From positions 24,700-88,699 of the IMG/VR virus record IMGVR_UViG_3300045988_176129: 64,000 nt of DNA; one strand, written 5' to 3'. The notes below the pieces were generated by a model, which saw only the letters and a program-made list of their open reading frames with translations, was not told where the DNA came from and made no database searches. The translations under genes and the position numbers were made by a program. Within the stretch, counting starts at the first letter, position 1. Each line of letters begins with the position of its first letter. Origin of the DNA: a virus. Shown here one piece after another: positions 12,557-57,325 of this stretch.

Positions 12557-13198
12557 ATGAAGCTACGAAAAATATTTATAGTTGGAGCAACTTTAGTTGT
12601 TCTAATTGCCACTACTAAAACAGGAAAAGTTCAATCAACTGAACGTGTATATGATTTATCTTCTTCTAAAGTAGAGGTTAAGGAATTAACAACAAAAAAA
12701 GTATCAACAGAACAAGAAATAAAAATTGAAACTGGTGGTTTTATGATTCCTACAACAACAGAAGAAATGACTACTGAGGAAGAATATACTACAGAAGCTA
12801 TAACAGAAGAATATTTTGAGTCAGAAACAACAGAGGCGGCAACTGAAGATTATAGTCTTCCTGAACCTATCATAGAAGACACTGAAGAAGAAAGCGCAGA
12901 GGTTTCCGAAGACCCCGCAGCCGCATATTCTTTTGATGAACTCATGTGGATGGGAGTTATTTATTGGGGAGATTATAGATGGACATATTATTCTGAATCT
13001 GTTTTGCCGGGAGAGGGACTTAATATTCCAGGAAGATATACAGATGAAACAGGATTTGTATGTGATGAAAATGGATATATTTGTTTAGCATCAAGTGATT
13101 TAAGTTATGGCACTATTGTTTCTACTCCTTTTGGGCGAATGGGTTGTGTTTATGATTCGGGCTGCCCGAGCGGAACTTTAGATGTATACGTAAGATAA
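12557..13198 (+). CDS. secreted protein with C-terminal 3D (MltA-like) domain
   Basis: Signal peptide, Thr/Glu-rich linker, C-terminal block ending in DSGCPSGTLDVYV that resembles the 3D domain. Confidence 0.55.
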   Translation: MKLRKIFIVGATLVVLIATTKTGKVQSTERVYDLSSSKVEVKELTTKKVSTEQEIKIETGGFMIPTTTEEMTTEEEYTTEAITEEYFESETTEAATEDYSLPEPIIEDTEEESAEVSEDPAAAYSFDELMWMGVIYWGDYRWTYYSESVLPGEGLNIPGRYTDETGFVCDENGYICLASSDLSYGTIVSTPFGRMGCVYDSGCPSGTLDVYVR

Positions 13199-13843: not shown

Positions 13844-13981
13844 TCCCTAGTAGCTCAGTTGGTAGAGTGTCTGACTGTGCGGAAATAGTATAAGCAGTAC
13901 GTCTGTAGCCCAGAAGATTTGAGTTCAAATCTCAATTTCCGATTAATCAGAATGTCGTAGGTTCGAGTCCTACCTGGGGAG
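13844..13981 (+). tRNA. tRNA-like gene with GTG-type anticodon loop interrupted by a ~65-72-nt insertion
   Basis: Canonical acceptor, D-arm and T-arm; the anticodon-stem halves (tctga / tcaga) are separated by 72 nt. Confidence 0.4.
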
Positions 13982-14120
13982 CTAGGTTAAGTTATTCATA
14001 GACTCGCCGATTGCAGAAAGTAGGAATGTTGTTATTTAAAATGGTAACACAGTCGCCGAAAGGACTGTCTGTCAGACTCCTTGACGGAGAATAGGAGTAG
14101 AGTTATAAGTGAAGATGATT

Positions 14121-14145
14121 GGAGGTTCGAATCCTTCCCCGCCGA
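14121..14145 (+). other. orphan canonical T-arm plus 3' acceptor-like element (unresolved tRNA or tRNA-like RNA end)
   Basis: ggagg-ttcgaat-ccttc followed by cccgccg; no 5' partner found within 100 nt. Confidence 0.3.
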
Positions 14146-14312
14146 AAAGTGGTGGGCGCGAAAGGAGTGCTAATCGAAGAACTTATTTTAGTTGAAGTAC
14201 AAAGTGTGTTGCAGCATATGGAGTAAATACTAAAGTAACTCGACAAGATTTACTGCAATAAGTCTTGATAGCTTAGTCATCTAATTGGAAGGATGCCACG
14301 GTATGTGGTCAC

Positions 14313-14337
14313 AGAGGTTCGATTCCTCTCTAAGATT
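14313..14337 (+). other. orphan canonical T-arm element (unresolved tRNA-like)
   Basis: agagg-ttcgatt-cctct followed by ctaagat; a possible 5' partner attttag lies 145 nt upstream. Confidence 0.3.
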
Positions 14338-14548
14338 TAGGCTCGGACTTTAACCCCGAGGGTAATAATTAGGGTTATTGCGTACAGAGAGATTGCCGAA
14401 CATTACGTATCCTCACTCTACCTTAACGAGATAAGGTGTAAAGATGTCTATGAAATGTCGTTTGAAAGAGATTTAGAGAGTTCACGAAGTAGCTCACCTT
14501 GTATCTTCAAGTTATGCTTCTTGGGGATATAGACAAAAAGCATTTTAA

Positions 14549-15055: not shown

Positions 15056-15135
15056 TTAAATGTATTTATAATGGTAACTGGCAAACTTATTTGACTTAGA
15101 ATCAAATATTTGAGAGTTTAAATTTTTTAGACGCA

Positions 15136-15164
15136 TTGACAAAAATAAAAATTTTTGTTATAAT
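15136..15164 (+). promoter_or_regulatory. sigma70-type promoter (TTGACA-17-TGnTATAAT) driving a non-coding region
   Basis: ttgaca ... tgttataat. Confidence 0.6.
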
Positions 15165-15300
15165 ATTATTAAGGAAGTTGCGGAAAGAAAACTGTTTAAC
15201 CTTATCAAAAATAAACAAAACTGCTGACCTTATTTCAGTGGAGAATAGGGTATAAAGGAAAATATAAGAGAGAACCCGTGCAGCAACCGGTACGTAAAAT
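15165..15300 (+). ncRNA. candidate small non-coding RNA (no ORF; flanked by promoters)
   Basis: Lies between two promoters; locally GC-richer; contains paired segments gcaaccggtacg...ggttgcccc. Confidence 0.25.
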
Positions 15301-15439
15301 AATGGTTGCCCCTTTAATTTGATATTTTTAAAAATTTTTGATATAATATATATATCAAATAAAAAAGAAAAATACTGAGTTGTCATTCTTCTAAGTATTT
15401 GGATAGTAATAACAAAAGAATGTTCGCTGGATTGGTTAG

Positions 15440-15490
15440 TTGGACTTGAGAATTTTCTCAATTGTGGTTCGATTCCACTTTGACCACTTA
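15440..15490 (+). other. degenerate tRNA-like element (acceptor + anticodon-like arm + T-arm, no D-arm)
   Basis: tggttag ... ttgag-aattttc-ctcaa ... gtgg-ttcgatt-ccac-tttgacca. Confidence 0.25.
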
Positions 15491-15504
15491 TCATAAAACA
15501 ATAT

Positions 15505-15533
15505 TTGACAAAAATAAAATTTTATGATATAAT
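15505..15533 (+). promoter_or_regulatory. sigma70-type promoter upstream of the large non-coding element
   Basis: ttgaca-17-tgatataat. Confidence 0.6.
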
Positions 15534-15634
15534 AATTATATAAGAAATCTTGTCAATGGATTAATTAATAGCATAAGCGCAGAGATGGGTTAGTTATAAT
15601 AGTGAAGAAAGCTAATCAGTTCGCACTTTGATAA

Positions 15635-16291
15635 TTGAATACTTTAGTCAAAATATAATGTAATAACTCAGTGCAGAATGGTGAATTCAGCCATGCTGAG
15701 AAATCTTGAGAAACTCCAGTAACAACCGAAGCAAGGATACTTGCGGATATTGCTGTTTTCTTAATTGTGAAATTAAGAAAAGAAAGGATAGGCTCCAACG
15801 AGTAGAGAGATTGTGCTGTGGGGATTACGGTTTATAGCGTAGGACGTGTCTCGGTGATGGAATAGAGGCGAAGGTTAATAGCTTTCGCTGAATCAAAGTG
15901 AGGGTTTAGCTGGTGACTGTATCAAACCTTTGAAATGCCAATAAATCATTTTGTCGTGATGTTTTAGAAATAGAACTATAAGAGATGCAGATGACCTGAA
16001 AGTAGCCTAAGACAAAATTAAAGAAGAACAATTTTAATTCAAGTTGTATGTAAATGGAAATTACATAAAAGATTGAAAATATTGCTGAAAGTAATGGTGA
16101 AATCTAGGGGTAGTCATTCCCCTCTAAGTTAAGTGAGTTTCGACTCATGGGGTAAAGAAGTACAGACTAGCTATCTGGTTGCTATTTATAGCATTTAACT
16201 CAGCCTTTATCTCCTTAGTTGCGTAATAATAAACAAGTAATACATAGTAAGAGGAAGCTCTATTATAATATATTTTGACTAAAGTATTCAA
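15635..16291 (+). ncRNA. ~650-nt non-coding element bounded by perfect 23-bp inverted repeats (candidate large structured RNA, or MITE-like insertion)
   Basis: ttgaatactttagtcaaaatata at 15635-15657 is the exact reverse complement of 16269-16291; no ORF over 60 aa inside; higher GC than flanks; sits between a promoter and tRNA-Glu. Confidence 0.45.
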
Positions 16292-16300
16292 GATGGCGAT

Positions 16301-16372
16301 GGCGGTATCGTCTAGTGGTTAGGACAGCGGCTTTTCACGCCGCAAACCCGAGTTCAAATCTCGGTACCGTCA
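16301..16372 (+). tRNA. tRNA-Glu(TTC)
   Basis: Acceptor ggcggta/taccgtc, anticodon stem gcggc/gccgc, loop ttttcac, T ccgag-ttcaaat-ctcgg. Confidence 0.8.
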
Positions 16373-16562
16373 CTTTTAAGACTCATCATCTTAAAATGGG
16401 AAGAAATTGCTCCCAATGTAAAGTAATTTGACTTGATATTTCAAGAGGTAAATATCCCTGTATACTAGGAGACGGTATAACAGTTATTTGATGGTTTCTC
16501 TGTTAAAAGAAAAGAATTATTAGGGTTGCAACCTGGTGATGACAAATAGCTATAGTTAATAT

Positions 16563-16635
16563 CGCGAATTGGACAGTATCGGTAGCTGCGTAGCCTCATA
16601 AGCTAATCAGAGGGGTTCGACTCCCCTATTCGCAA
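16563..16635 (+). tRNA. tRNA-Met(CAT), initiator-like (C1-A72 mismatch)
   Basis: Acceptor cgcgaat / attcgca with a C:A mismatch at the top; anticodon loop ctcataa; T agggg-ttcgact-cccct; irregular D-arm. Confidence 0.6.
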
Positions 16636-17035
16636 GCAAAAGTACAATGATTTCATTTTTCCTTTCAGATATGTGTTTGTTGTATTGTACTTTTATATTT
16701 GGTGGTTGGTTTTTTCCAAGAGTTTACCAACTAAAAAACAAAACTTGTTCATATATAGTTCTTTTCATAATAGGCGGAGGAGCCTTTCTTCCGCCTTTAA
16801 TTCTGACTATTATTGAATTTACATATAAATTTCAAAGAAGGAGATTGATATTATGAAAGATAGAGAGTGGGGCAATTAAGTAGGCTAGGAAAAGTAAAAC
16901 ATCAGGTGGGTTTATAATTCCATAGACCTACTTGCCGCAAGTTTAATATTCATTAAGAGATATGAAATATTACTTGAAAAAATAAAAAAATTATAATATA
17001 ATATATGTATAAGATAAAGAAAGGAAATAAGAATT

Positions 17036-19578: not shown

Positions 19579-19652
19579 ATCTCGGTAAAGATAATTGGAA
19601 ATCGCTTGGTCTCCAAAACCATAGTACCTGGGTTCGATTCCTAGCTGAGATG
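19579..19652 (+). tRNA. tRNA-Trp(CCA)
   Basis: Acceptor atctcgg/ctgagat, anticodon loop ctccaaa, T ctggg-ttcgatt-cctag; weak D-stem. Confidence 0.55.
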
Positions 19653-20272: not shown

Positions 20273-21238
20273 ATGAGAAAAATAACAGAAACACATACAG
20301 GAAAGATTGTAACTGATACAGATTTAACTCTTGAATATTTATATGTTGGTGATTATGGAAAAGAGAATAATATTAAGGCATCATTTCTTGGATATGATAA
20401 AAGAATTGATAAGGTAGAGCATAAACCTGTAGATATTACTGATAAGCTTGTAGTGACTGTATCTTCACAAAAAGGTTGTCCTATGAATTGCAATTTCTGT
20501 GACTGTCCTAAACTTGGATTTAAAGGTAATGCAACTTTGCCAGAGTTGATTACGGAAATTATGTCAGGTGTTGCTTTATCTGGAATTAAGCATGGACAAA
20601 GATTGAATGTACATTATGCAAGAATGGGTGAACCAACATTTAATCCAAATGTTATTACATCGGCAAAGTTTATTGCGCAAATGTTAATGAGTGAAAATTC
20701 AGATGTAACTTTTGATACATACCATCCTGTAGTGTCTACTATGATGCCAAAATCAAATAAAAACCTTAAAGAGTTTTTACATAAATGGATAACAACTGGA
20801 TTTGTATATGGCGGAGAGGATGGTTTTGGATTACAGTTTTCTATAAATACTCTTAATGAGAATGATAGAAATGAAATGTTCAGAAACAGGTCTTTATCAT
20901 TGCAGGAAATTAGTAATATTATCAAAGAACTTCCTTATCCGAAGAAGAGAAAATATACATTAAATTTTGCGGTTACTTCCAAGAGTAATCTTAATGTAGA
21001 CCTTATGAACAAATATTTTGATAAGAAGAAATGCATTGTTAAAATGACGCCAATTCATGAGACTGTTGAAGCTGTTGATGAAGGATATGAAATTGTGCAT
21101 GATTTTGATGTATATGAGCAGTTTGAGCAGCCACTTGTAAATGATGGATGGGATGTAATTGTCTTTGTTCCCTCAAAAGAGGAAGATGAGGACAGAATTA
21201 CATGTGGAAATTCGTTAATTGCATTAGGAAACAAGTAA
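20273..21238 (+). CDS. radical SAM enzyme, RlmN/Cfr-like (candidate rRNA/tRNA adenosine C2 methyltransferase)
   Basis: VSSQKGCPMNCNFCDC has the CxxxCxxC cluster inside a vSSQxGC...C.FC context typical of RlmN; a C-terminal ITCGNS may hold the second catalytic Cys. Confidence 0.55.
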   Translation: MRKITETHTGKIVTDTDLTLEYLYVGDYGKENNIKASFLGYDKRIDKVEHKPVDITDKLVVTVSSQKGCPMNCNFCDCPKLGFKGNATLPELITEIMSGVALSGIKHGQRLNVHYARMGEPTFNPNVITSAKFIAQMLMSENSDVTFDTYHPVVSTMMPKSNKNLKEFLHKWITTGFVYGGEDGFGLQFSINTLNENDRNEMFRNRSLSLQEISNIIKELPYPKKRKYTLNFAVTSKSNLNVDLMNKYFDKKKCIVKMTPIHETVEAVDEGYEIVHDFDVYEQFEQPLVNDGWDVIVFVPSKEEDEDRITCGNSLIALGNK

Positions 21239-52949: not shown

Positions 52950-53030
52950 CAAAAAATAAAATTTTTAATATAATATTTATTGAGGTTAAAAATAATAAAT
53001 AAAATTTTAATAAAGAAAGGAGTTATACAG

Positions 53031-54908
53031 ATGAGTAATAATTTGTATAATGAGGAAAGTATTAAATCACTAAGCCCATTGGAATTTACCCGTCTTCGTC
53101 CTGGTGTCTATTGTGGATCTACGGAGTATGCAACTCAACCATTAATAGAGATAGTATCTAATGCTATTGATGAATATAAGGCTGGACATGGAGATACAAT
53201 AGATGTAACTATAAATAAAGATAATTCTTGCTGTGTAAGAGACTATGCACAGGGATTTTTAATTAATAGTAAAAGGGATGATGGTAAGACTATTCTTCAG
53301 GCAGCATTTGATACACTTAATACTTCAGGAAAATTTACAGACGATGGAGTGTATGAAGGTACTGCTTTAGGTCTTAATGGTATAGGAAGCAAGCTTACAA
53401 ACTTCTTGTCACATTGGTTGATAGTTACTTCTTTTAGAGACGGAAAATTTGAAGAGGTATCCTTTAAAGAAGGAGTTTTTTCAGATCGTATAACAGGAGA
53501 CAGTAATGAGCATGGAACTGAAGTAGAGTGGCTTCCTAGTGAAGAATTTTTTACTTCAAATAAAGTTGAAATAAATAGAGTAAAAGAATTATTTGATGTT
53601 CTTGTTTGTCTATGTCCTGGATTGACAATAAATCTTACAACTTCAGATGAAAAGGTTTCATTTTTCTCAAAAAATGGTTTAAATGATTTAGTTGATAAAA
53701 AGGTTAAAGACAATGAACTTATTAACAATAGAATGAATATGTCTTTTGAGAATGGTAGAAATAAAATGGATATGGTTATTACATATACTTCTAATTATTC
53801 TTTAAATATGATTTCTTATGTTAATACAGGTGAAACTGATGCAGGCCCACATATCACGCAGATAAAAACTATTTTAACCAGAGAGTTTAATAAATTCTTT
53901 AAAGAGAAAAAATGGTTAAAAGATAAAGATACTAATTTTTCAGGTGATGATATACAGGAAGGATTATTAATTGCTTTTAATATTACTGCTCCAGGAGTTT
54001 CATATGATGCTCAGACCAAGAGTAGAATTGTAAAGTTAGACATGACACCTTTTACATCTGCTATTGTTGAAAACTTACAATATTGGTTTAATAATAATGA
54101 AAAAGAAATTAAACTAATATTTGATAAGGCGGCAAGTGCTAGAAAAGCTAGAGAAGCAGCTAAGAAAGCAAGGGAAGCTGCAAGAAAGCCAAAAGAAAAA
54201 GGTTTAAAAGCTAAAATGAAACTTAGCAATAAGTTTATTGATTGTGCAAATAAAAATCCTTCAGAAAGAAATCTTCTGTTGGTAGAGGGCCTTTCAGCTG
54301 GGAGCGCCGCAGTTGAAGCAAGAAATGCAAAAACAGATTGTATATATATGTTAAGAGGAAAGATTATTTCTCCTTTAAAGACATCTATTGATAAAATTTT
54401 AGCTAATCAGGAAATGTCTGATATAGTTAGAGTCATAGGGGCAGGATTTGGTGACACTTTTGATGTGTCAAAAATGAATTTTGATAAGATTGTAATAACA
54501 ACAGATATGGATTCTGATGGAGCAGATATTGAACTTCTTTTGATTACATTTTTCTTTACATATATGCGTCCTTTAATAGAAGCGGGAAAGCTTTATCGAG
54601 CAGTAACTCCTCTTTATATAGTAAAGCTTGGAAAAGAAGAATTGTATTTCTATACAGAAGAAGAAATGGATAAATTCAAAACAACTCATAAAAACAATTA
54701 TGAAGTATTGAGAGCAAAGGGTCTTGGAGAACTTGATGCAGCTGATCTTCATAAGGTTTGCTTTGAAAAGCAGAGATTTAAGAGAATTACTATATCTGAC
54801 TTGCAGAAAACAAAAGTATTATTAGATACATTGCAGGGACAAGCGGTTACTCCAAGAAAACAATTTATTTATGATAATGCAAAGACTCTTGGATTTGAAT
54901 TTGATTAA
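53031..54908 (+). CDS. type II DNA topoisomerase, ATPase/TOPRIM subunit (GyrB/gp39-like)
   Basis: GHKL ATPase N-terminus and TOPRIM LLLVEGLSAGSA; start set at MSNNLY with RBS aaaggagt. Confidence 0.8.
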   Translation: MSNNLYNEESIKSLSPLEFTRLRPGVYCGSTEYATQPLIEIVSNAIDEYKAGHGDTIDVTINKDNSCCVRDYAQGFLINSKRDDGKTILQAAFDTLNTSGKFTDDGVYEGTALGLNGIGSKLTNFLSHWLIVTSFRDGKFEEVSFKEGVFSDRITGDSNEHGTEVEWLPSEEFFTSNKVEINRVKELFDVLVCLCPGLTINLTTSDEKVSFFSKNGLNDLVDKKVKDNELINNRMNMSFENGRNKMDMVITYTSNYSLNMISYVNTGETDAGPHITQIKTILTREFNKFFKEKKWLKDKDTNFSGDDIQEGLLIAFNITAPGVSYDAQTKSRIVKLDMTPFTSAIVENLQYWFNNNEKEIKLIFDKAASARKAREAAKKAREAARKPKEKGLKAKMKLSNKFIDCANKNPSERNLLLVEGLSAGSAAVEARNAKTDCIYMLRGKIISPLKTSIDKILANQEMSDIVRVIGAGFGDTFDVSKMNFDKIVITTDMDSDGADIELLLITFFFTYMRPLIEAGKLYRAVTPLYIVKLGKEELYFYTEEEMDKFKTTHKNNYEVLRAKGLGELDAADLHKVCFEKQRFKRITISDLQKTKVLLDTLQGQAVTPRKQFIYDNAKTLGFEFD

Positions 54909-54952
54909 AAAATATGATATAATAAATTATAAAATAAAGAAAGGACATAAAT

Positions 54953-57325
54953 ATGGAAGATTTTATTACTGAAGTAGATATATATGATGAAAGTAAAGAG
55001 TCTTTCCTTACCTATGCTTCAGAAGTTTTAACTGATAGAGCAATTCCATCCGCAGAGGATGGACTTCTCTCTGCTCAGAGAAAGATTCTTTGGACAATGG
55101 AAGATTTCTTAAAAATGTCTAATAAAGGTAAGACAAAGAAATGTAATGCGATAGTCGGAAGCACATTAGCCACTAGCTATTTTCATGGAGATCAAGCTTG
55201 TTATGGAGTTTTGTGTAAAATGTCTCAGCCTTATTTAATGAGATACCCTCTTATACAAGGACAGGGTTCTTTGGGAACTCAGGAAAATAATGATATGGTA
55301 GCTAGTTCAAGATATACAGAAGCTAAGCCATCTAAATTTGCAGACTTAATGATGGAAAATTTTAAGAAGAATGCAGTTCCTCTGAAAGAGACCTATAATG
55401 GAGAATTTTATGAGCCAGTTATTCTTCCAGGAATGTTTCCTAATGCGATGTGTAATGGTAGACAGGCTATTGGTATTAGTATGTCTCATTCATCTATGCC
55501 ACATAATCTATCTGAGGTATGTGACGGAATTATAGCTTATATTCGCAATAAAAATATAACAATAGATGAATTGATGGAATATATTAAAGGCCCAGACTTC
55601 CCACTCGAGAATGTTGTTATAAATAGCAAAGATATAAGAACAGCTTTTGCAACAGGACATTCAGCAACATCTTTAAAGGTAAGAGGAAAATATAATGTAA
55701 AAGGACAGGTTATTACATTTTATACTATTCCATATAGAACATATAGAAACAAAATAAAAGAGCAGTTAGAAAAAAATATTGATATTTTTGATGATTTGTT
55801 AGAAGACTTTAATGATGAATCTTCTCTTGGCGAGAACAAGCTAGTGTTTACAGTTAAAAAAGGAGTTAATCCTGAATCAGTAGTAAATAAACTTTTTGCT
55901 TTAACTGATTTACAGACTACGCTTTCATATAATATGAATTATATTGTAAATGGAACTCCTAAAATGTGTTCTATGCTAGATTTGGTAAAAGCTTATGTAA
56001 CTCATCAGATTAATGTGTTACTTAATGTAACTAATTTTGATAGAGATAAAGCTGTAGCACGTAAGCATATTTTGGATGGACTCTTAATAATAATTAAGAG
56101 TATAGATAGAGCCATTGAAATTATTAGAGGTTCAATTGATTCTAAAGAAGCAAAAGATAAGCTTCAGAAAGAATTTGGATTAGATGAAATTCAGGCTAAA
56201 GCTGTTCTTGACTTAAAATTAGCTAGATTGACAAAGCTTGATAGCAATGATTTAATAAAAGAACTTGAAGAAAAAATCGCTATTATAGCAGAATGTGATA
56301 GAATTATTAATGAAGAGGATTACAGAAATACAAAACTTATTGAGTTAATAAATAAGCTGAAAGAAAAGTATGGAGATGCTCGTAGAACAGAACTTCTTAA
56401 TATTGAAGTTCCAAAAGAAGAAAAAGAAATTGCAGAAGTAATTCCAGAAGATGTAGTTGTAGTTCTTACAAAGACTGGTTTAATAAAGCGAGTTCCCGCA
56501 AAATCATTTAAGGTTCAAAAGAGAAATGGAGTAGGAATAAAAAATGCGGATTCCGCAATCCTCAGTTCTATCTCAACTAATACTGTTGATATACTTATGG
56601 CTTTTTCATCAAAAGGAAAAATGTATAGATTGGTTGTTGACAACGTACCAGCTGGAACTAATGTATCAAAAGGTTCTTCAATTAGAGATTTAATTCCTAT
56701 TGAACCAGATGAAGAAATTATTGCAATTACTTCTTTGTATAGAAAGAGTGAAGCTAAGTATGTAGTATTTATTACTAAGAATGGTTTACTTAAAAAGACT
56801 GAGCTTGATGAATATAAATCTGCAAAAAGAAATTGTGGTATTGCGGCAATTAAATTAAAAGAAGGAGACAGTCTTGCGAATGTAACTTTCTTAAATGATG
56901 AACAAATAATGATTATCACAAAGAAAGGTATGTCTATCCGTTTTGAAACAAAAGATATTGGAGCTGTTGGTAGAATAGCTATGGGAGTAAAATCTATTAA
57001 ATTAGATGAAGGAGACAGCATATTATGCGGACTTCCAGTTCATAAGAATACAGATAGTTTAGCAATATTTACTGAAAAGGGATTAGGCAAAAAGATGGAG
57101 CTGTCTGAATTTCCAGTTCAAGGTAGAGGTGGAAAGGGACTCCAGTTATATAAAGGAGATAACATTGTCGGCGCAGAAATGATTAGTGATAATGATTCTA
57201 TCCTTATTGTAGGTAACAGGTCTACGATATGTATTTCTGCAAAAGATATTCCAAACTTTGGAAGAACTGCCGCAGGCAATATAATGATAAAAAATTCTAC
57301 AATATTAAATGTAGTAAAAATATAA
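54953..57325 (+). CDS. type II DNA topoisomerase, DNA breakage-reunion subunit (GyrA/gp52-like)
   Basis: AEDGLLSAQRKILW and the active-site SSRYTEAK block. Confidence 0.8.
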   Translation: MEDFITEVDIYDESKESFLTYASEVLTDRAIPSAEDGLLSAQRKILWTMEDFLKMSNKGKTKKCNAIVGSTLATSYFHGDQACYGVLCKMSQPYLMRYPLIQGQGSLGTQENNDMVASSRYTEAKPSKFADLMMENFKKNAVPLKETYNGEFYEPVILPGMFPNAMCNGRQAIGISMSHSSMPHNLSEVCDGIIAYIRNKNITIDELMEYIKGPDFPLENVVINSKDIRTAFATGHSATSLKVRGKYNVKGQVITFYTIPYRTYRNKIKEQLEKNIDIFDDLLEDFNDESSLGENKLVFTVKKGVNPESVVNKLFALTDLQTTLSYNMNYIVNGTPKMCSMLDLVKAYVTHQINVLLNVTNFDRDKAVARKHILDGLLIIIKSIDRAIEIIRGSIDSKEAKDKLQKEFGLDEIQAKAVLDLKLARLTKLDSNDLIKELEEKIAIIAECDRIINEEDYRNTKLIELINKLKEKYGDARRTELLNIEVPKEEKEIAEVIPEDVVVVLTKTGLIKRVPAKSFKVQKRNGVGIKNADSAILSSISTNTVDILMAFSSKGKMYRLVVDNVPAGTNVSKGSSIRDLIPIEPDEEIIAITSLYRKSEAKYVVFITKNGLLKKTELDEYKSAKRNCGIAAIKLKEGDSLANVTFLNDEQIMIITKKGMSIRFETKDIGAVGRIAMGVKSIKLDEGDSILCGLPVHKNTDSLAIFTEKGLGKKMELSEFPVQGRGGKGLQLYKGDNIVGAEMISDNDSILIVGNRSTICISAKDIPNFGRTAAGNIMIKNSTILNVVKI

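What the first reader, a model, noticed from the sequence alone, without database searches (positions are those of the whole stretch)
15505..16300. ~650-nt non-coding element with perfect 23-bp terminal inverted repeats inside the tRNA array
ttgaatactttagtcaaaatata (15635-15657) is the exact reverse complement of 16269-16291. The enclosed ~610 nt has no ORF over 60 aa and is GC-richer than the genome, with many local helices. A strong promoter sits directly upstream and tRNA-Glu starts 10 nt after the 3' repeat. Two readings fit. First, a large ornate structured RNA whose ends pair; GOLLD and ROOL RNAs are found in Firmicutes phages next to tRNA genes. Second, a MITE-like non-autonomous insertion with terminal inverted repeats.
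Basis: seen in the sequence. Interest (0 to 1): 0.8.

Follow-up and report, generated by a model that had tools for sequence, protein, structure and literature searches.

The report
Phage ROOL RNA gene, not transposon
The element is a new but typical copy of ROOL, a known large phage RNA that self-assembles into hollow RNA-only cages, and its "terminal inverted repeats" are simply the helix that pairs the RNA's two ends.

Summary
An exact 23-nt inverted repeat lies at 15635-15657 / 16269-16291, where shuffles predict none. It extends to a 30-bp helix. A consensus promoter sits upstream and tRNA-Glu starts 10 nt downstream.

The element is a full-length ROOL RNA (Rfam RF03087, 255.9 bits against a cut-off of 99.1, model 1-574). 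The repeat is ROOL helix P1, which pairs the 5' and 3' ends.

I collected 15 other ROOLs, all inside tRNA arrays. 11 of 14 have a 24-37-bp P1 at the same position. The arm sequences are unrelated between lineages (33-40% identity) yet stay complementary, and G·U wobbles outnumber A·C 24:6. That marks a selected RNA helix, not transposase-binding ends. There is no target-site duplication and no second copy.

The pairings that glue ROOL monomers into cages in the cryo-EM structures can be mapped and are present: L8 with J6/8, and the L18 self-kiss.

Biological function remains unknown, as for the whole family.

Verdict: a new member of a known kind. Interest is low to moderate.

A side observation may be more unusual: tRNA genes here and in related phages carry ~68-nt inserts in the anticodon loop that fold as cloverleaves.

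The parts
15505..15533 (+). Sigma-70-type promoter: -35 TTGACA (15505-15510), 17-nt spacer, extended -10 TGnTATAAT (TG at 15525-15526, TATAAT at 15528-15533). Predicted transcription start about 15540.
   Evidence: 12 of 12 consensus matches, TG present. It is the third of three similar promoter repeats spaced about 185 nt apart (family D1). Function is inferred, not shown.
15540..15634 (+). Leader of about 95 nt between the predicted start and P1. It is presumably removed during maturation.
   Evidence: No significant fold of its own (z = +0.47) and no Rfam hit. It is 96% conserved in the close relative L436 from 15558 onward. In L. salivarius the ROOL promoter also lies far upstream (225-450 nt) of the mature 5' end (PMC5643018).
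15635..15664 (+). P1 5' arm, 30 nt.
   Evidence: Rfam model positions 7-22 fall here. The helix runs 8 nt beyond the 5' end of the Rfam match.
15643..16280 (+). ROOL RNA as delimited by Rfam RF03087 (model 1-574 of 574).
   Evidence: 255.9 bits against a gathering score of 99.1, E = 3.2e-57. 127 of 154 consensus pairs are canonical in this sequence.
15868..15888 (+). P7 hairpin: 7-bp stem GCGAAGG/CUUUCGC with a 7-nt loop. This is the apical element that forms the inner ring in env-120. Its counterpart, called P10 in the other numbering, is ultrashort in the hexamer-forming L. salivarius ROOL.
   Evidence: Sequence read directly; Rfam alignment; PMC12286853 section 6; PMC12990946. Any consequence for stoichiometry is inference.
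15912..15915 (+). L8 loop nucleotides GGUG, corresponding to env-120 G307-A310. One side of intermolecular kissing bridge B4.
   Evidence: Mapped by motif to env-120. They pair with UGCC at 15936-15939 as G-C, G-C, U·G, G·U.
15936..15939 (+). J6/8 nucleotides UGCC, corresponding to env-120 U332-C335. Partner of L8 in bridge B4.
   Evidence: The third pair covaries across my set: C-G in most, U·G in the window, L436 and L223, and U-A in L441 and env-120.
15842..15996 (+). Long-range helix 15842-15852 / 15982-15996 enclosing the P6-P9 domain. In the Rfam structure line it is drawn with square brackets.
   Evidence: 10 of 12 model pairs are canonical. RNAalifold recovered it independently on a MAFFT alignment, with compensatory changes at every pair (columns 238-248 / 386-397).
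16011..16092 (+). Variable linker, the region that is disordered inside the cage in env-120.
   Evidence: It aligns to the unstructured loop of the Rfam model with a 27-nt insertion. Most of the differences from L436 cluster here. PMC12286853 section 6.
16163..16177 (+). P18/L18 hairpin CAGA-CUAGCUA-UCUG. The loop holds the palindrome UAGCUA (16168-16173), with a central G16170-C16171 corresponding to env-120 G565/C566, the symmetric inter-shell kissing bridge B6.
   Evidence: Most relatives have UCGCU and env-120 has UUGCUA. The window's A makes a 4-bp AGCU self-complement. Efa ROOL is reported to have a 4-bp kissing loop at this site (PMC12990946).
16180..16197 (+). Lineage-specific 18-nt insertion forming a small hairpin (UGCUA-UUUA-UAGCA).
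   Evidence: It appears as an insert relative to the Rfam model. It is present only in the window and L436 among 14 ROOLs. L436 has a G-to-A change that breaks one pair, so it is probably not under strong constraint.
16262..16291 (+). P1 3' arm, 30 nt.
16301..16373 (+). tRNA-Glu (UUC), 9 nt after P1. RNase P cleavage at its 5' end would set the 3' end of ROOL.
   Evidence: 66.3 bits. In L436 only 2-3 nt separate P1 from this tRNA. Other ROOLs are packed equally tightly against tRNAs. The RNase P step follows from established tRNA biology and was not tested here.

Best explanation
This is a phage-encoded ROOL RNA gene: rumen-originating, ornate, large; Rfam RF03087.

Identity and fold (shown here). 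The mature RNA is about 657 nt (15635-16291). The 23-bp perfect inverted repeat is the outer part of helix P1, 30 bp here, which pairs the 5' and 3' ends and closes a multi-domain fold.

Likely expression and maturation (inferred):
1. Transcription starts at the consensus sigma-70 promoter at 15505-15533.
2. It runs through a ~95-nt leader, ROOL and tRNA-Glu, and probably through tRNA-Met to the terminator-like hairpin at 16772-16796.
3. RNase P cleavage at the 5' end of tRNA-Glu frees the ROOL 3' end.
4. An unidentified nuclease removes the leader. The long P1 duplex is a plausible RNase III-type processing stem or a protective clamp.

Likely assembly (inferred from solved homologues). Monomers associate without protein into a hollow homo-oligomeric cage, an octamer in env-120 and E. 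faecalis ROOL. The contacts are intermolecular base pairs. The two that can be mapped here are L8 GGUG (15912-15915) with J6/8 UGCC (15936-15939) of a neighbour, and the self-complementary L18 loop UAGCUA (16168-16173) between half-shells.

Role. What the cage does for the phage is unknown for the whole family. The constant linkage to tRNA arrays suggests a role tied to phage tRNA supply or translation during infection.
For: Rfam ROOL match: full length, 255.9 bits (gathering 99.1), E = 3e-57, with no competing family. 127 of 154 consensus pairs are canonical in this sequence.

Thermodynamics: MFE z = -5.7, with P1 closing the structure.

Relatives: 15 further ROOLs were collected, scoring 147-399 bits full length, all embedded in tRNA arrays.

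P1 across the family: 24-37 bp in 11 of 14 at the same anchored position. Arm identity to the window is only 0.33-0.40, while 88-97% of positions stay paired. G·U outnumbers A·C 24 to 6 under a strand-symmetric rule, p about 7e-4. This indicates selection on the transcribed + strand.

Model-independent structure: RNAalifold on a plain MAFFT alignment predicts 36 pairs, 28 of them with compensatory changes, including long-range helices and the L8:J6/8 pairing.

Close relative L436: 96.4% identical over the leader and ROOL. Its differences fall in the linker and loops, or convert G-C or A-U pairs to G·U (15779, 15923); the one exception breaks a pair in the lineage-specific hairpin (16181).

Distant relative L441: same layout of homologous upstream gene, then tRNAs, then ROOL (318 bits).

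Cage-forming contacts: B4 and B6 map onto the sequence. B4 and P1 carry significant covariation in the published family alignment (PMC12286853 supplement 3).

Literature: ROOL forms RNA-only cages, lies near tRNA islands in phages and prophages, and has unknown function (PMC12286853; PMC12990946). A tRNA precursor fused to the 3' end does not disturb the cage (commentary on Ling et al., PMC12515178). In L. salivarius the mature ROOL is shorter than its primary transcript (PMC5643018).
Against: Nothing contradicts the ROOL assignment. The weak points concern the inferred steps.

- One helix (15820-15840 / 16222-16245) satisfies only about 5 of 16 model pairs as aligned by Infernal. By eye an offset pairing exists (AUUAC/GUAAU and UUUAU/AUAAA), but I did not test it formally.
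- Expression, end processing, oligomeric state and function are all untested. The host is unknown and no transcript data exist.
- Bridge B1 and the A-minor contacts could not be mapped reliably, because env-120 differs in that region.
- L440, a relative with a homologous upstream gene and a tRNA array, lacks ROOL. The RNA is therefore dispensable for this kind of phage.
- My 14-16 sequences are few and partly related, so the statistics are indicative only.
Confidence: 0.93

Rival explanations
1. It is a MITE-like non-autonomous transposable element. The 23-bp terminal inverted repeats would be transposase binding sites, and the element would have inserted into the tRNA array.
For: Perfect 23-bp terminal inverted repeats are present and there is no long ORF. 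ROOL is present in some related phages and absent in others: L441 has it and L440 does not.
Against: - The interior, not the termini, is what is conserved across 16 homologous elements. The arms differ completely between lineages but stay complementary.
- G·U outnumbers A·C 24:6 in the arms, a strand-specific RNA signature that is meaningless for DNA ends.
- No target-site duplication.
- No second copy in 64 kb, and blastn of the element finds only tRNA-Glu matches in 2.3 Gb of phage records.
- The full-length ROOL covariance-model hit explains every part of the element.
Confidence: 0.02
2. It is a decaying ROOL remnant that is no longer functional and is carried along in the tRNA array.
For: The score (256 bits) is lower than for several relatives (318-399 bits). 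One helix fits the model poorly. There is a lineage-specific 18-nt insertion, and a relative (L440) lacks ROOL.
Against: - The match covers model positions 1-574 with no truncation.
- 82% of consensus pairs are canonical.
- P1 is nearly perfect at 29 of 30 pairs.
- The conserved sequence blocks and both mappable intermolecular contacts are intact.
- The 96%-identical relative L436 differs mainly in the linker and loops or by pair-preserving changes, as expected under purifying selection.
- A perfect consensus promoter is retained.
Confidence: 0.04
3. It is a different class of large structured RNA, such as GOLLD, a group I or II intron, or another ribozyme, and only resembles ROOL superficially.
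For: GOLLD shares the genomic context next to phage tRNAs, and both families form cages (PMC12286853).
Against: A scan of all 4227 Rfam families, at gathering threshold and at E <= 1, gives only ROOL over this interval. The family-specific sequence blocks (AACUCAGUG, GGAUAC, AAUAGA, GCCAAUAA, CUAUAA, AAGUAGCC, GGUGAAA, GCUCAG) are all present.
Confidence: 0.01

Closest known systems
ROOL RNA env-120 (cow rumen metagenome; cryo-EM homo-octamer, PDB 9MDS; Kretsch et al. 2025, PMC12286853)
   Same: Same Rfam family and similar length (659 nt against about 657 nt). Both have a terminal P1 pairing nucleotide 1 with the last nucleotide. Both have a P7 stem, a U-turn GG in the L8 loop pairing with a CC in J6/8 (bridge B4), a central GC in L18 (bridge B6), and a variable internal linker.
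   Different: Primary sequence is highly diverged. The third and fourth B4 pairs are U-A and A-U in env-120 but U·G and G·U here. L18 is UUGCUA there and UAGCUA here, which allows 4 self-pairs here against the single G565-C566 type (two symmetric pairs) recorded for env-120. env-120 has an extra 5' hairpin and an insertion after the linker that carry bridge B1, which I could not map here. The window has an 18-nt extra hairpin at 16180-16197.
Enterococcus faecalis and Firmicutes CAG:227 ROOL (octamers) and Ligilactobacillus salivarius ROOL (hexamer, PDB 9J6Y) (Ling et al. and Wang et al., summarised in PMC12515178 and PMC12990946)
   Same: Same family and the same set of interfaces. These include a reported 4-bp self-kissing loop between half-shells, which the window's AGCU matches. 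The L. salivarius RNA is processed from a longer transcript (PMC5643018), as is inferred here.
   Different: Those copies are chromosomal, prophage or megaplasmid copies in cultured Firmicutes. This one sits in a large, apparently novel phage genome of unknown host, with more than 21 tRNA genes. The window has a 7-bp stem at the apical element where L. salivarius has an ultrashort one, so it resembles the octamer formers, but stoichiometry was not tested.
GOLLD RNA (Rfam RF01998)
   Same: It is also a large ornate RNA found in phage and prophage tRNA arrays. It also forms RNA-only cages, and its function is also unknown.
   Different: Its sequence and secondary structure are unrelated. There is no Rfam GOLLD hit here.
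Precursor rRNA processing stems (the long terminal helices flanking 16S and 23S rRNA that RNase III cuts)
   Same: In both cases a 25-35-bp duplex forms between the 5' and 3' flanks of a large structured RNA inside a polycistronic transcript that also contains tRNAs.
   Different: This is an analogy only. In ROOL, P1 is retained in the solved structures, and no RNase III cleavage has been reported or tested.

Membership tests
ROOL RNA (Rfam RF03087) | A match to the family covariance model above the curated gathering score, over the full model | tested here: met
   255.9 bits against 99.1; model 1-574 of 574; E = 3.2e-57; not truncated.
ROOL RNA (Rfam RF03087) | Terminal helix P1 pairing the 5' and 3' ends | tested here: met
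   30 bp (28 Watson-Crick, 1 G·U, 1 mismatch) at 15635-15664 / 16262-16291. The same helix, 24-37 bp long, occurs in 11 of 14 relatives with unrelated arm sequences. P1 covaries significantly in the published alignment.
ROOL RNA (Rfam RF03087) | Multi-domain consensus secondary structure, including the long-range helix that encloses P6-P9 | tested here: met
   127 of 154 consensus pairs are canonical. The long-range helix has 10 of 12. One helix (15820-15840 / 16222-16245) fits poorly as aligned. RNAalifold gives independent support, with 28 of 36 pairs showing compensatory change.
ROOL RNA (Rfam RF03087) | Conserved sequence blocks in junctions and loops (AAC-CAGUG, GGAUAC, AAUAGA, GCCAAUAA, CUAUAA, AAGUAGCC, GGUGAAA, GCUCAG, GAAG tetraloop hairpin before the P1 3' arm) | tested here: met
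   All are present in the Infernal alignment. Many are invariant across the 14-sequence alignment.
ROOL RNA (Rfam RF03087) | Variable, poorly conserved internal linker | tested here: met
   The linker at 16011-16092 aligns to the unstructured model loop with a 27-nt insertion. It is the most divergent region compared with L436.
ROOL RNA (Rfam RF03087) | Complementarity between L8 and J6/8 (intermolecular bridge B4) and a self-complementary core in L18 (bridge B6) | tested here: met
   GGUG 15912-15915 pairs with UGCC 15936-15939 (4 pairs, 2 of them wobble). The third pair covaries C-G / U·G / U-A across the set. The L18 loop is CUAGCUA with a central GC.
ROOL RNA (Rfam RF03087) | Genomic context: a phage or prophage, next to or inside a tRNA island | tested here: met
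   The element lies inside an array of 21 or more tRNA genes. The window encodes phage topoisomerase II subunits and an RNA ligase. All 15 relatives lie in tRNA arrays.
ROOL RNA (Rfam RF03087) | Protein-free assembly into a homo-oligomeric cage, and high cellular abundance | not testable with these tools
   This needs in-vitro transcription with mass photometry or cryo-EM, and RNA-seq of infected cells.
MITE / non-autonomous TIR transposon | Terminal inverted repeats | tested here: met
   23 bp perfect. This feature is equally explained by P1.
MITE / non-autonomous TIR transposon | Target-site duplication flanking the repeats | tested here: not met
   The flanks are ...CACTTTGATAA | element | GATGGCGATGG..., with no direct repeat abutting the arms.
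MITE / non-autonomous TIR transposon | Several dispersed copies sharing the same terminal sequence | tested here: not met
   The arm sequence occurs only at these two positions in 64 kb. blastn of the element finds only tRNA-Glu matches in 50,697 phage records. The only near-identical copy (L436) is at the orthologous locus.
MITE / non-autonomous TIR transposon | Termini conserved within the family while the interior is free to vary | tested here: not met
   The reverse holds. The interior blocks are invariant, and the arms share only 33-40% identity between lineages.
GOLLD RNA | A match to the GOLLD covariance model | tested here: not met
   No GOLLD hit at gathering threshold or at E <= 1.

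The most novel reading that the evidence does not exclude
ROOL maturation may be mechanically coupled to tRNA processing. The RNA would be cut out of a tRNA-array transcript by RNase P at the abutting tRNA-Glu, and by a duplex-specific nuclease at the unusually long P1. Cages could form while precursor tRNAs are still attached at their 3' ends. The cage would then act as a scaffold, store or decoy for phage tRNAs, for example shielding them from host anticodon nucleases, alongside the phage RNA ligase. The evidence here does not exclude this. ROOLs are packed within 3-28 nt of tRNAs in almost every locus, P1 is 24-37 bp long, and 3'-fused pre-tRNA is tolerated by the cage in vitro (PMC12515178). 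Nothing here tests it.
Probability: 0.12. Interest if true: 0.8.

Novelty: new member of a known kind. Interest (0 to 1): 0.27.

Why it matters
ROOL is one of very few natural RNAs known to build large protein-free cages, and its biological role is still unknown. This copy adds nothing new in kind. It does offer a clean, compact test case: its own consensus promoter, a 30-bp closing helix, intact cage-forming contacts, a tRNA starting 10 nt downstream, and a 96%-identical natural variant for comparison. The survey also makes two family-level points explicit. The long terminal helix is general and evolves by compensatory change. ROOLs are packed tightly between tRNAs, which makes the idea of tRNA-enzyme-dependent maturation directly testable. 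For genome scanning, the practical lesson is that [quoted passage not shown] should be read as ROOL or GOLLD, not as a transposon.

Tried and rejected
1. I used the first ORF after the tRNA array (20273-21238) to fetch syntenic relatives. It returned 80 loci, but only the gene itself is shared (94% DNA identity over the gene, nothing else), and none has a homologous ROOL. They were no use for covariation, and the gene is a mosaic module.

2. Two early DNA patterns were poorly tuned. One was too strict and gave 1 real ROOL in 9 hits. The other was too loose, and its 120 hits were almost all chance matches. A three-block pattern worked better but still returned mostly chance hits in the genome and metagenome collections. 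Real ROOLs were then picked out by iterative nhmmer and confirmed with Rfam.

3. I searched for close relatives in GenBank phages by megablast and blastn. Only tRNA matches came back. A protein search with the topoisomerase subunit gave at most 36% identity. The phage is not closely related to any deposited one, and its host stays unknown.

4. I tested the leader (15540-15634) as a structured or tRNA-like element. It has no significant fold and no Rfam hit.

5. My first G·U versus A·C count used a helix rule that favoured G·U. I discarded it and repeated the count with a strand-symmetric rule.

6. I tried mapping env-120 contacts by absolute numbering. The machine-read supplement sequence is 650 nt instead of 659 nt, so the indices drift. 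I mapped by local motif instead. B1, B2, B3 and B5 could not be placed with confidence and are not claimed.

7. A regex for the L8 loop picked a stem GGUG in L150 and L184. The alignment shows that their loop is GUGGCAG, so I count them in the C-G class.
Full report
OBSERVATION

TTGAATACTTTAGTCAAAATATA lies at 15635-15657, and its exact reverse complement lies at 16269-16291. These are the only two matches in the 64-kb window even when 3 mismatches are allowed, and 100 dinucleotide-preserving shuffles gave none. The repeat finder extends the arms to 31 nt at 94% complementarity.

No ORF longer than 60 aa overlaps the element. Its GC content is 0.349 (core 0.369), against 0.317 for the window.

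A perfect extended -10 promoter is present: TTGACA, 17 nt, TGnTATAAT, at 15505-15533. tRNA-Glu occupies 16301-16373. One refinement is needed. About 95 nt separate the predicted transcription start from the left arm.

IDENTITY

A scan of the whole window against all 4227 Rfam families gives one non-tRNA hit. It is ROOL (RF03087) at 15643-16280 on the + strand, scoring 255.9 bits against a gathering score of 99.1, E = 3.2e-57. It covers model positions 1-574 of 574 with no truncation. GOLLD does not match.

In the Infernal alignment the inverted repeat is the outermost helix of the model, P1 (model positions 7-22 paired with 555-571). In this sequence the helix continues 8-11 nt beyond the ends of the Rfam match.

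I parsed that alignment. 127 of the 154 consensus base pairs for which both residues are present are canonical here, 17 of them G·U. One helix (15820-15840 / 16222-16245) fits poorly as aligned. An offset pairing (AUUAC/GUAAU and UUUAU/AUAAA) is visible by eye, but I did not test it formally.

The element alone folds to -179 kcal/mol, z = -5.7 against shuffles, with P1 closing the structure.

INDEPENDENT COMPARATIVE EVIDENCE

Deposited phage genomes hold no relative; only tRNA matches came back. I therefore searched contig collections with conserved ROOL motifs. I separated real ROOLs from chance matches by iterative nhmmer and confirmed them with Rfam. This gave 15 further ROOLs, scoring 147-399 bits, all full length and all inside tRNA arrays.

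Two of them are informative about this particular phage.
- L436 is a 2.8-kb metagenome contig. It is 96.4% identical over the leader and ROOL, and 92.5% identical over the downstream tRNA array.
- L441 is a distant relative whose homologue of the gene at 12557-13198 is 56% identical. It has the same order of gene, tRNA array and ROOL, with ROOL scoring 318 bits.

L440 is a third relative, with 68% identity in that gene. It has the tRNA array but no ROOL. The RNA is therefore not indispensable.

THE 'TERMINAL INVERTED REPEAT' IS AN RNA HELIX

I anchored every ROOL on the conserved AAC-CAGUG block, just inside the 5' arm, and on the GNRA-type hairpin, just inside the 3' arm. P1 is 30 bp in the window (28 Watson-Crick, 1 G·U, 1 A·A). 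It is 24-37 bp in 11 of 14 sequences. The remaining three have a shorter inner helix followed by an internal loop and further pairing.

The arm sequences of different lineages share only 33-40% identity with the window's arm, which is what unrelated AT-rich sequence gives. Yet 88-97% of positions remain paired.

My first G·U versus A·C count was biased by the helix rule, so I repeated it with a rule that treats G·U and A·C identically. G·U then outnumbers A·C by 24 to 6, p about 7e-4, with the caveat that the sequences are not fully independent. G·U is tolerated only in RNA and only on the transcribed strand, so this is a strand-specific RNA signature.

RNAalifold was run on a plain MAFFT alignment of 14 ROOLs, with no input from the Rfam model. 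It predicts 36 pairs, 28 of them with at least one double compensatory change. They include the long-range helix that encloses the P6-P9 domain.

The window and L436 differ at 17 aligned positions and 3 gaps over the ~780-nt leader-to-tRNA-Glu match. Within ROOL, most differences lie in the linker or in loops. The two that hit modelled pairs (15779 and 15923) convert A-U or G-C to G·U. One further change (16181) breaks a pair in the lineage-specific extra hairpin.

THE TRANSPOSON READING FAILS

There is no target-site duplication; the flanks are ...TTTGATAA | GATGGCGA.... There is no second copy. The only near-identical copy is at the orthologous position. Within the family the interior is conserved and the ends are free to vary, the opposite of a TIR element.

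HOW IT MOST LIKELY WORKS

What is established for the family comes from the literature.
- ROOL RNAs are found in phages and prophages, often near tRNA islands.
- They can be as abundant as rRNA, and no function is known (PMC12286853; PMC5643018).
- Cryo-EM shows that env-120 and E. faecalis ROOL form protein-free D4 octameric cages about 28 nm across. L. salivarius ROOL forms a hexamer. The variable linker lies disordered inside the cage (PMC12286853; PMC12990946; PMC12515178).

The supplement of PMC12286853 lists the intermolecular contacts residue by residue. Two of them can be mapped here without ambiguity.

Bridge B4 is the conserved kissing interaction within a half-shell. In env-120 it pairs L8 G307-A310 with J6/8 U332-C335. 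The window has GGUG (15912-15915) opposite UGCC (15936-15939), giving G-C, G-C, U·G and G·U. Across my set the third pair is C-G in most sequences, U·G in the window, L436 and L223, and U-A in L441 and env-120. The same pair has the strongest B4 covariation in the published table.

Bridge B6 is the symmetric kiss between half-shells. In env-120 it is G565 with C566 of the partner chain, in the L18 loop UUGCUA. The window's loop is CUAGCUA (16167-16173). The central GC is kept, and the neighbouring A creates a 4-bp AGCU self-complement, as reported for the E. faecalis RNA.

The apical P7 hairpin is a full 7-bp stem (15868-15888), like the octamer formers and unlike the ultrashort element of the hexamer former. 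I treat stoichiometry as untested.

Bridges B1, B2, B3 and B5 could not be placed reliably. One reason is that env-120 differs in those regions. The other is that the machine-read supplement sequence has lost 9 nt.

The expression and maturation model is inference, and runs as follows.
1. The promoter at 15505-15533 fires.
2. The transcript runs through the leader, ROOL and tRNA-Glu, and probably on through tRNA-Met (16562-16637). The first + strand terminator-like hairpin downstream is at 16772-16796.
3. RNase P cleavage at 16300/16301 releases the ROOL 3' end with a 9-nt tail. In L436 the spacer is only 2-3 nt.
4. The leader has no structure of its own (z = +0.47) and must be removed by another nuclease. 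A 30-bp duplex is a plausible RNase III-type substrate or a protective clamp. I have no evidence for either role.

Three published results fit this picture. The L. salivarius promoter maps 225-450 nt upstream of the mature 5' end. ROOLs in the other loci sit 3-28 nt from a tRNA on one or both sides. A precursor tRNA fused to the ROOL 3' end does not prevent cage formation in vitro.

COMPARISON AND NOVELTY

Every defining feature of ROOL that can be tested by sequence is met. Cage formation and abundance cannot be tested with these tools.

Compared with the solved members, this copy differs in:
- two wobble pairs in B4;
- a more extended L18 palindrome;
- an 18-nt extra hairpin (16180-16197), shared only with L436 and probably not constrained;
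- its setting, a large and apparently novel phage with topoisomerase II subunits, an RNA ligase and more than 21 tRNAs.

It is a new member of a known kind. A specialist would not be surprised, because a phage tRNA array is the canonical home of ROOL.

SIDE OBSERVATIONS

The tRNA at 13844-13981 carries a ~68-nt insert in its anticodon loop. ARAGORN misses it in default mode, while Rfam finds it at 54 bits. The insert itself folds as a cloverleaf, with a 7-bp closing stem and a canonical T-arm.

L441 has a homologous tRNA whose insert keeps the fold, but its closing stem has a different sequence that still pairs.

In L436 the tRNA-Glu next to ROOL carries a different 68-nt cloverleaf-like insert. 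The window's otherwise near-identical tRNA-Glu lacks it.

ARAGORN with intron detection finds tRNA genes of about 139-152 nt with 53-69-nt inserts in 22 of the 80 otherwise unrelated large-phage loci (L026-L032, L034-L039, L041-L048 and L073). Their inserts are not alignable with the window's.

One literature search found no description of such inserts in phage tRNAs. An acceptor/T-arm minihelix inside the insert would be a substrate for RNase P and RNase Z. The ends those enzymes leave (3'-OH and 5'-phosphate) are what an ATP-dependent RNA ligase joins, and the window encodes one (45984-47219). This is an untested idea, recorded because it may be more unusual than the assigned finding.

Noticed in passing
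window 13844-13981; L441 13370-13509; L436 741-880 (compare window 16301-16373); L026-L048 and L073: Some tRNA genes carry a ~68-nt insert in the anticodon loop that folds as a small cloverleaf. In the window and L441 the inserts are homologous: a 6-7-bp closing stem whose sequence differs but stays paired (CGGAAAU/AUUUCCG against GCUAGA/UCUAGC), three hairpins, and a canonical T-loop (GAGUUCAAAUCU) in the third. L436's tRNA-Glu has a different cloverleaf-like 68-nt insert that the window's near-identical tRNA-Glu lacks, so presence varies between close relatives. ARAGORN with introns enabled finds tRNAs of 139-152 nt with 53-69-nt inserts in 22 of 80 unrelated large-phage loci. One literature search found no description. 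Untested idea: excision by RNase P and RNase Z, then sealing by the phage RNA ligase.
   Followed up: partly
window 20273-21238 (+): The first ORF after the tRNA array (321 aa, phrog_24834, unknown function) has 268 relatives in IMG/VR. The closest are 94% identical in DNA over exactly the gene, while nothing else of window 10000-22000 matches those contigs. It is a horizontally exchanged single-gene module among large phages.
   Followed up: partly
window 15134-15541: Three copies of a ~39-nt consensus promoter (at 15134, 15317 and 15503) lie about 185 nt apart. The third drives ROOL. Unit 2 ends in a degenerate tRNA-like sequence (anticodon-arm-like UUGAG-AAUUUUC-CUCAA and T-arm GUGGUUCGAUUCCAC, about 15436-15492) that neither ARAGORN nor Rfam calls. 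Unit 1 ends in a GCAACC...GGTTGC hairpin followed by a T-run (about 15286-15320) and may encode a small RNA.
   Followed up: partly
window 13982-14548, 14270-14337, 15062-15135, 19580-19651: A GC-rich (~0.43) non-coding stretch lies between the insert-bearing tRNA and tRNA-Thr. It contains a weak tRNA (14270-14337, 30.9 bits) and a further T-arm-like motif (about 14118-14140), and is otherwise unexplained. Two more marginal tRNA matches that ARAGORN missed are at 15062-15135 (23.3 bits) and 19580-19651 (29.9 bits).
   Followed up: partly
window 16292-16303: A 6-nt tandem duplication, GATGGC GATGGC, spans the junction between ROOL P1 and the 5' end of tRNA-Glu. L436 has a single copy, so there the tRNA starts 2-3 nt after P1 instead of 9 nt.
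   Followed up: yes
L226 602-1013, L150 4172-4576, L223 9894-10298: Phage contigs that carry ROOL in their tRNA arrays also encode a full-length tmRNA (88-94 bits) in the same array. The window has no tmRNA hit.
   Followed up: no
window 45984-47219 (+) and 52980-57325 (+): An RNA ligase (phrog_968, E = 6e-54) and both subunits of a type II topoisomerase are encoded. The nearest deposited phage homologues of the topoisomerase are at most 36% identical. The phage is large and only distantly related to anything in GenBank, and its host is unknown.
   Followed up: partly
window 16180-16197: An 18-nt hairpin is inserted in the ROOL P17/P18 region. Only the window and L436 have it among 14 ROOLs, and L436 carries a pair-breaking G-to-A change at 16181, so it is probably a neutral expansion.
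   Followed up: yes
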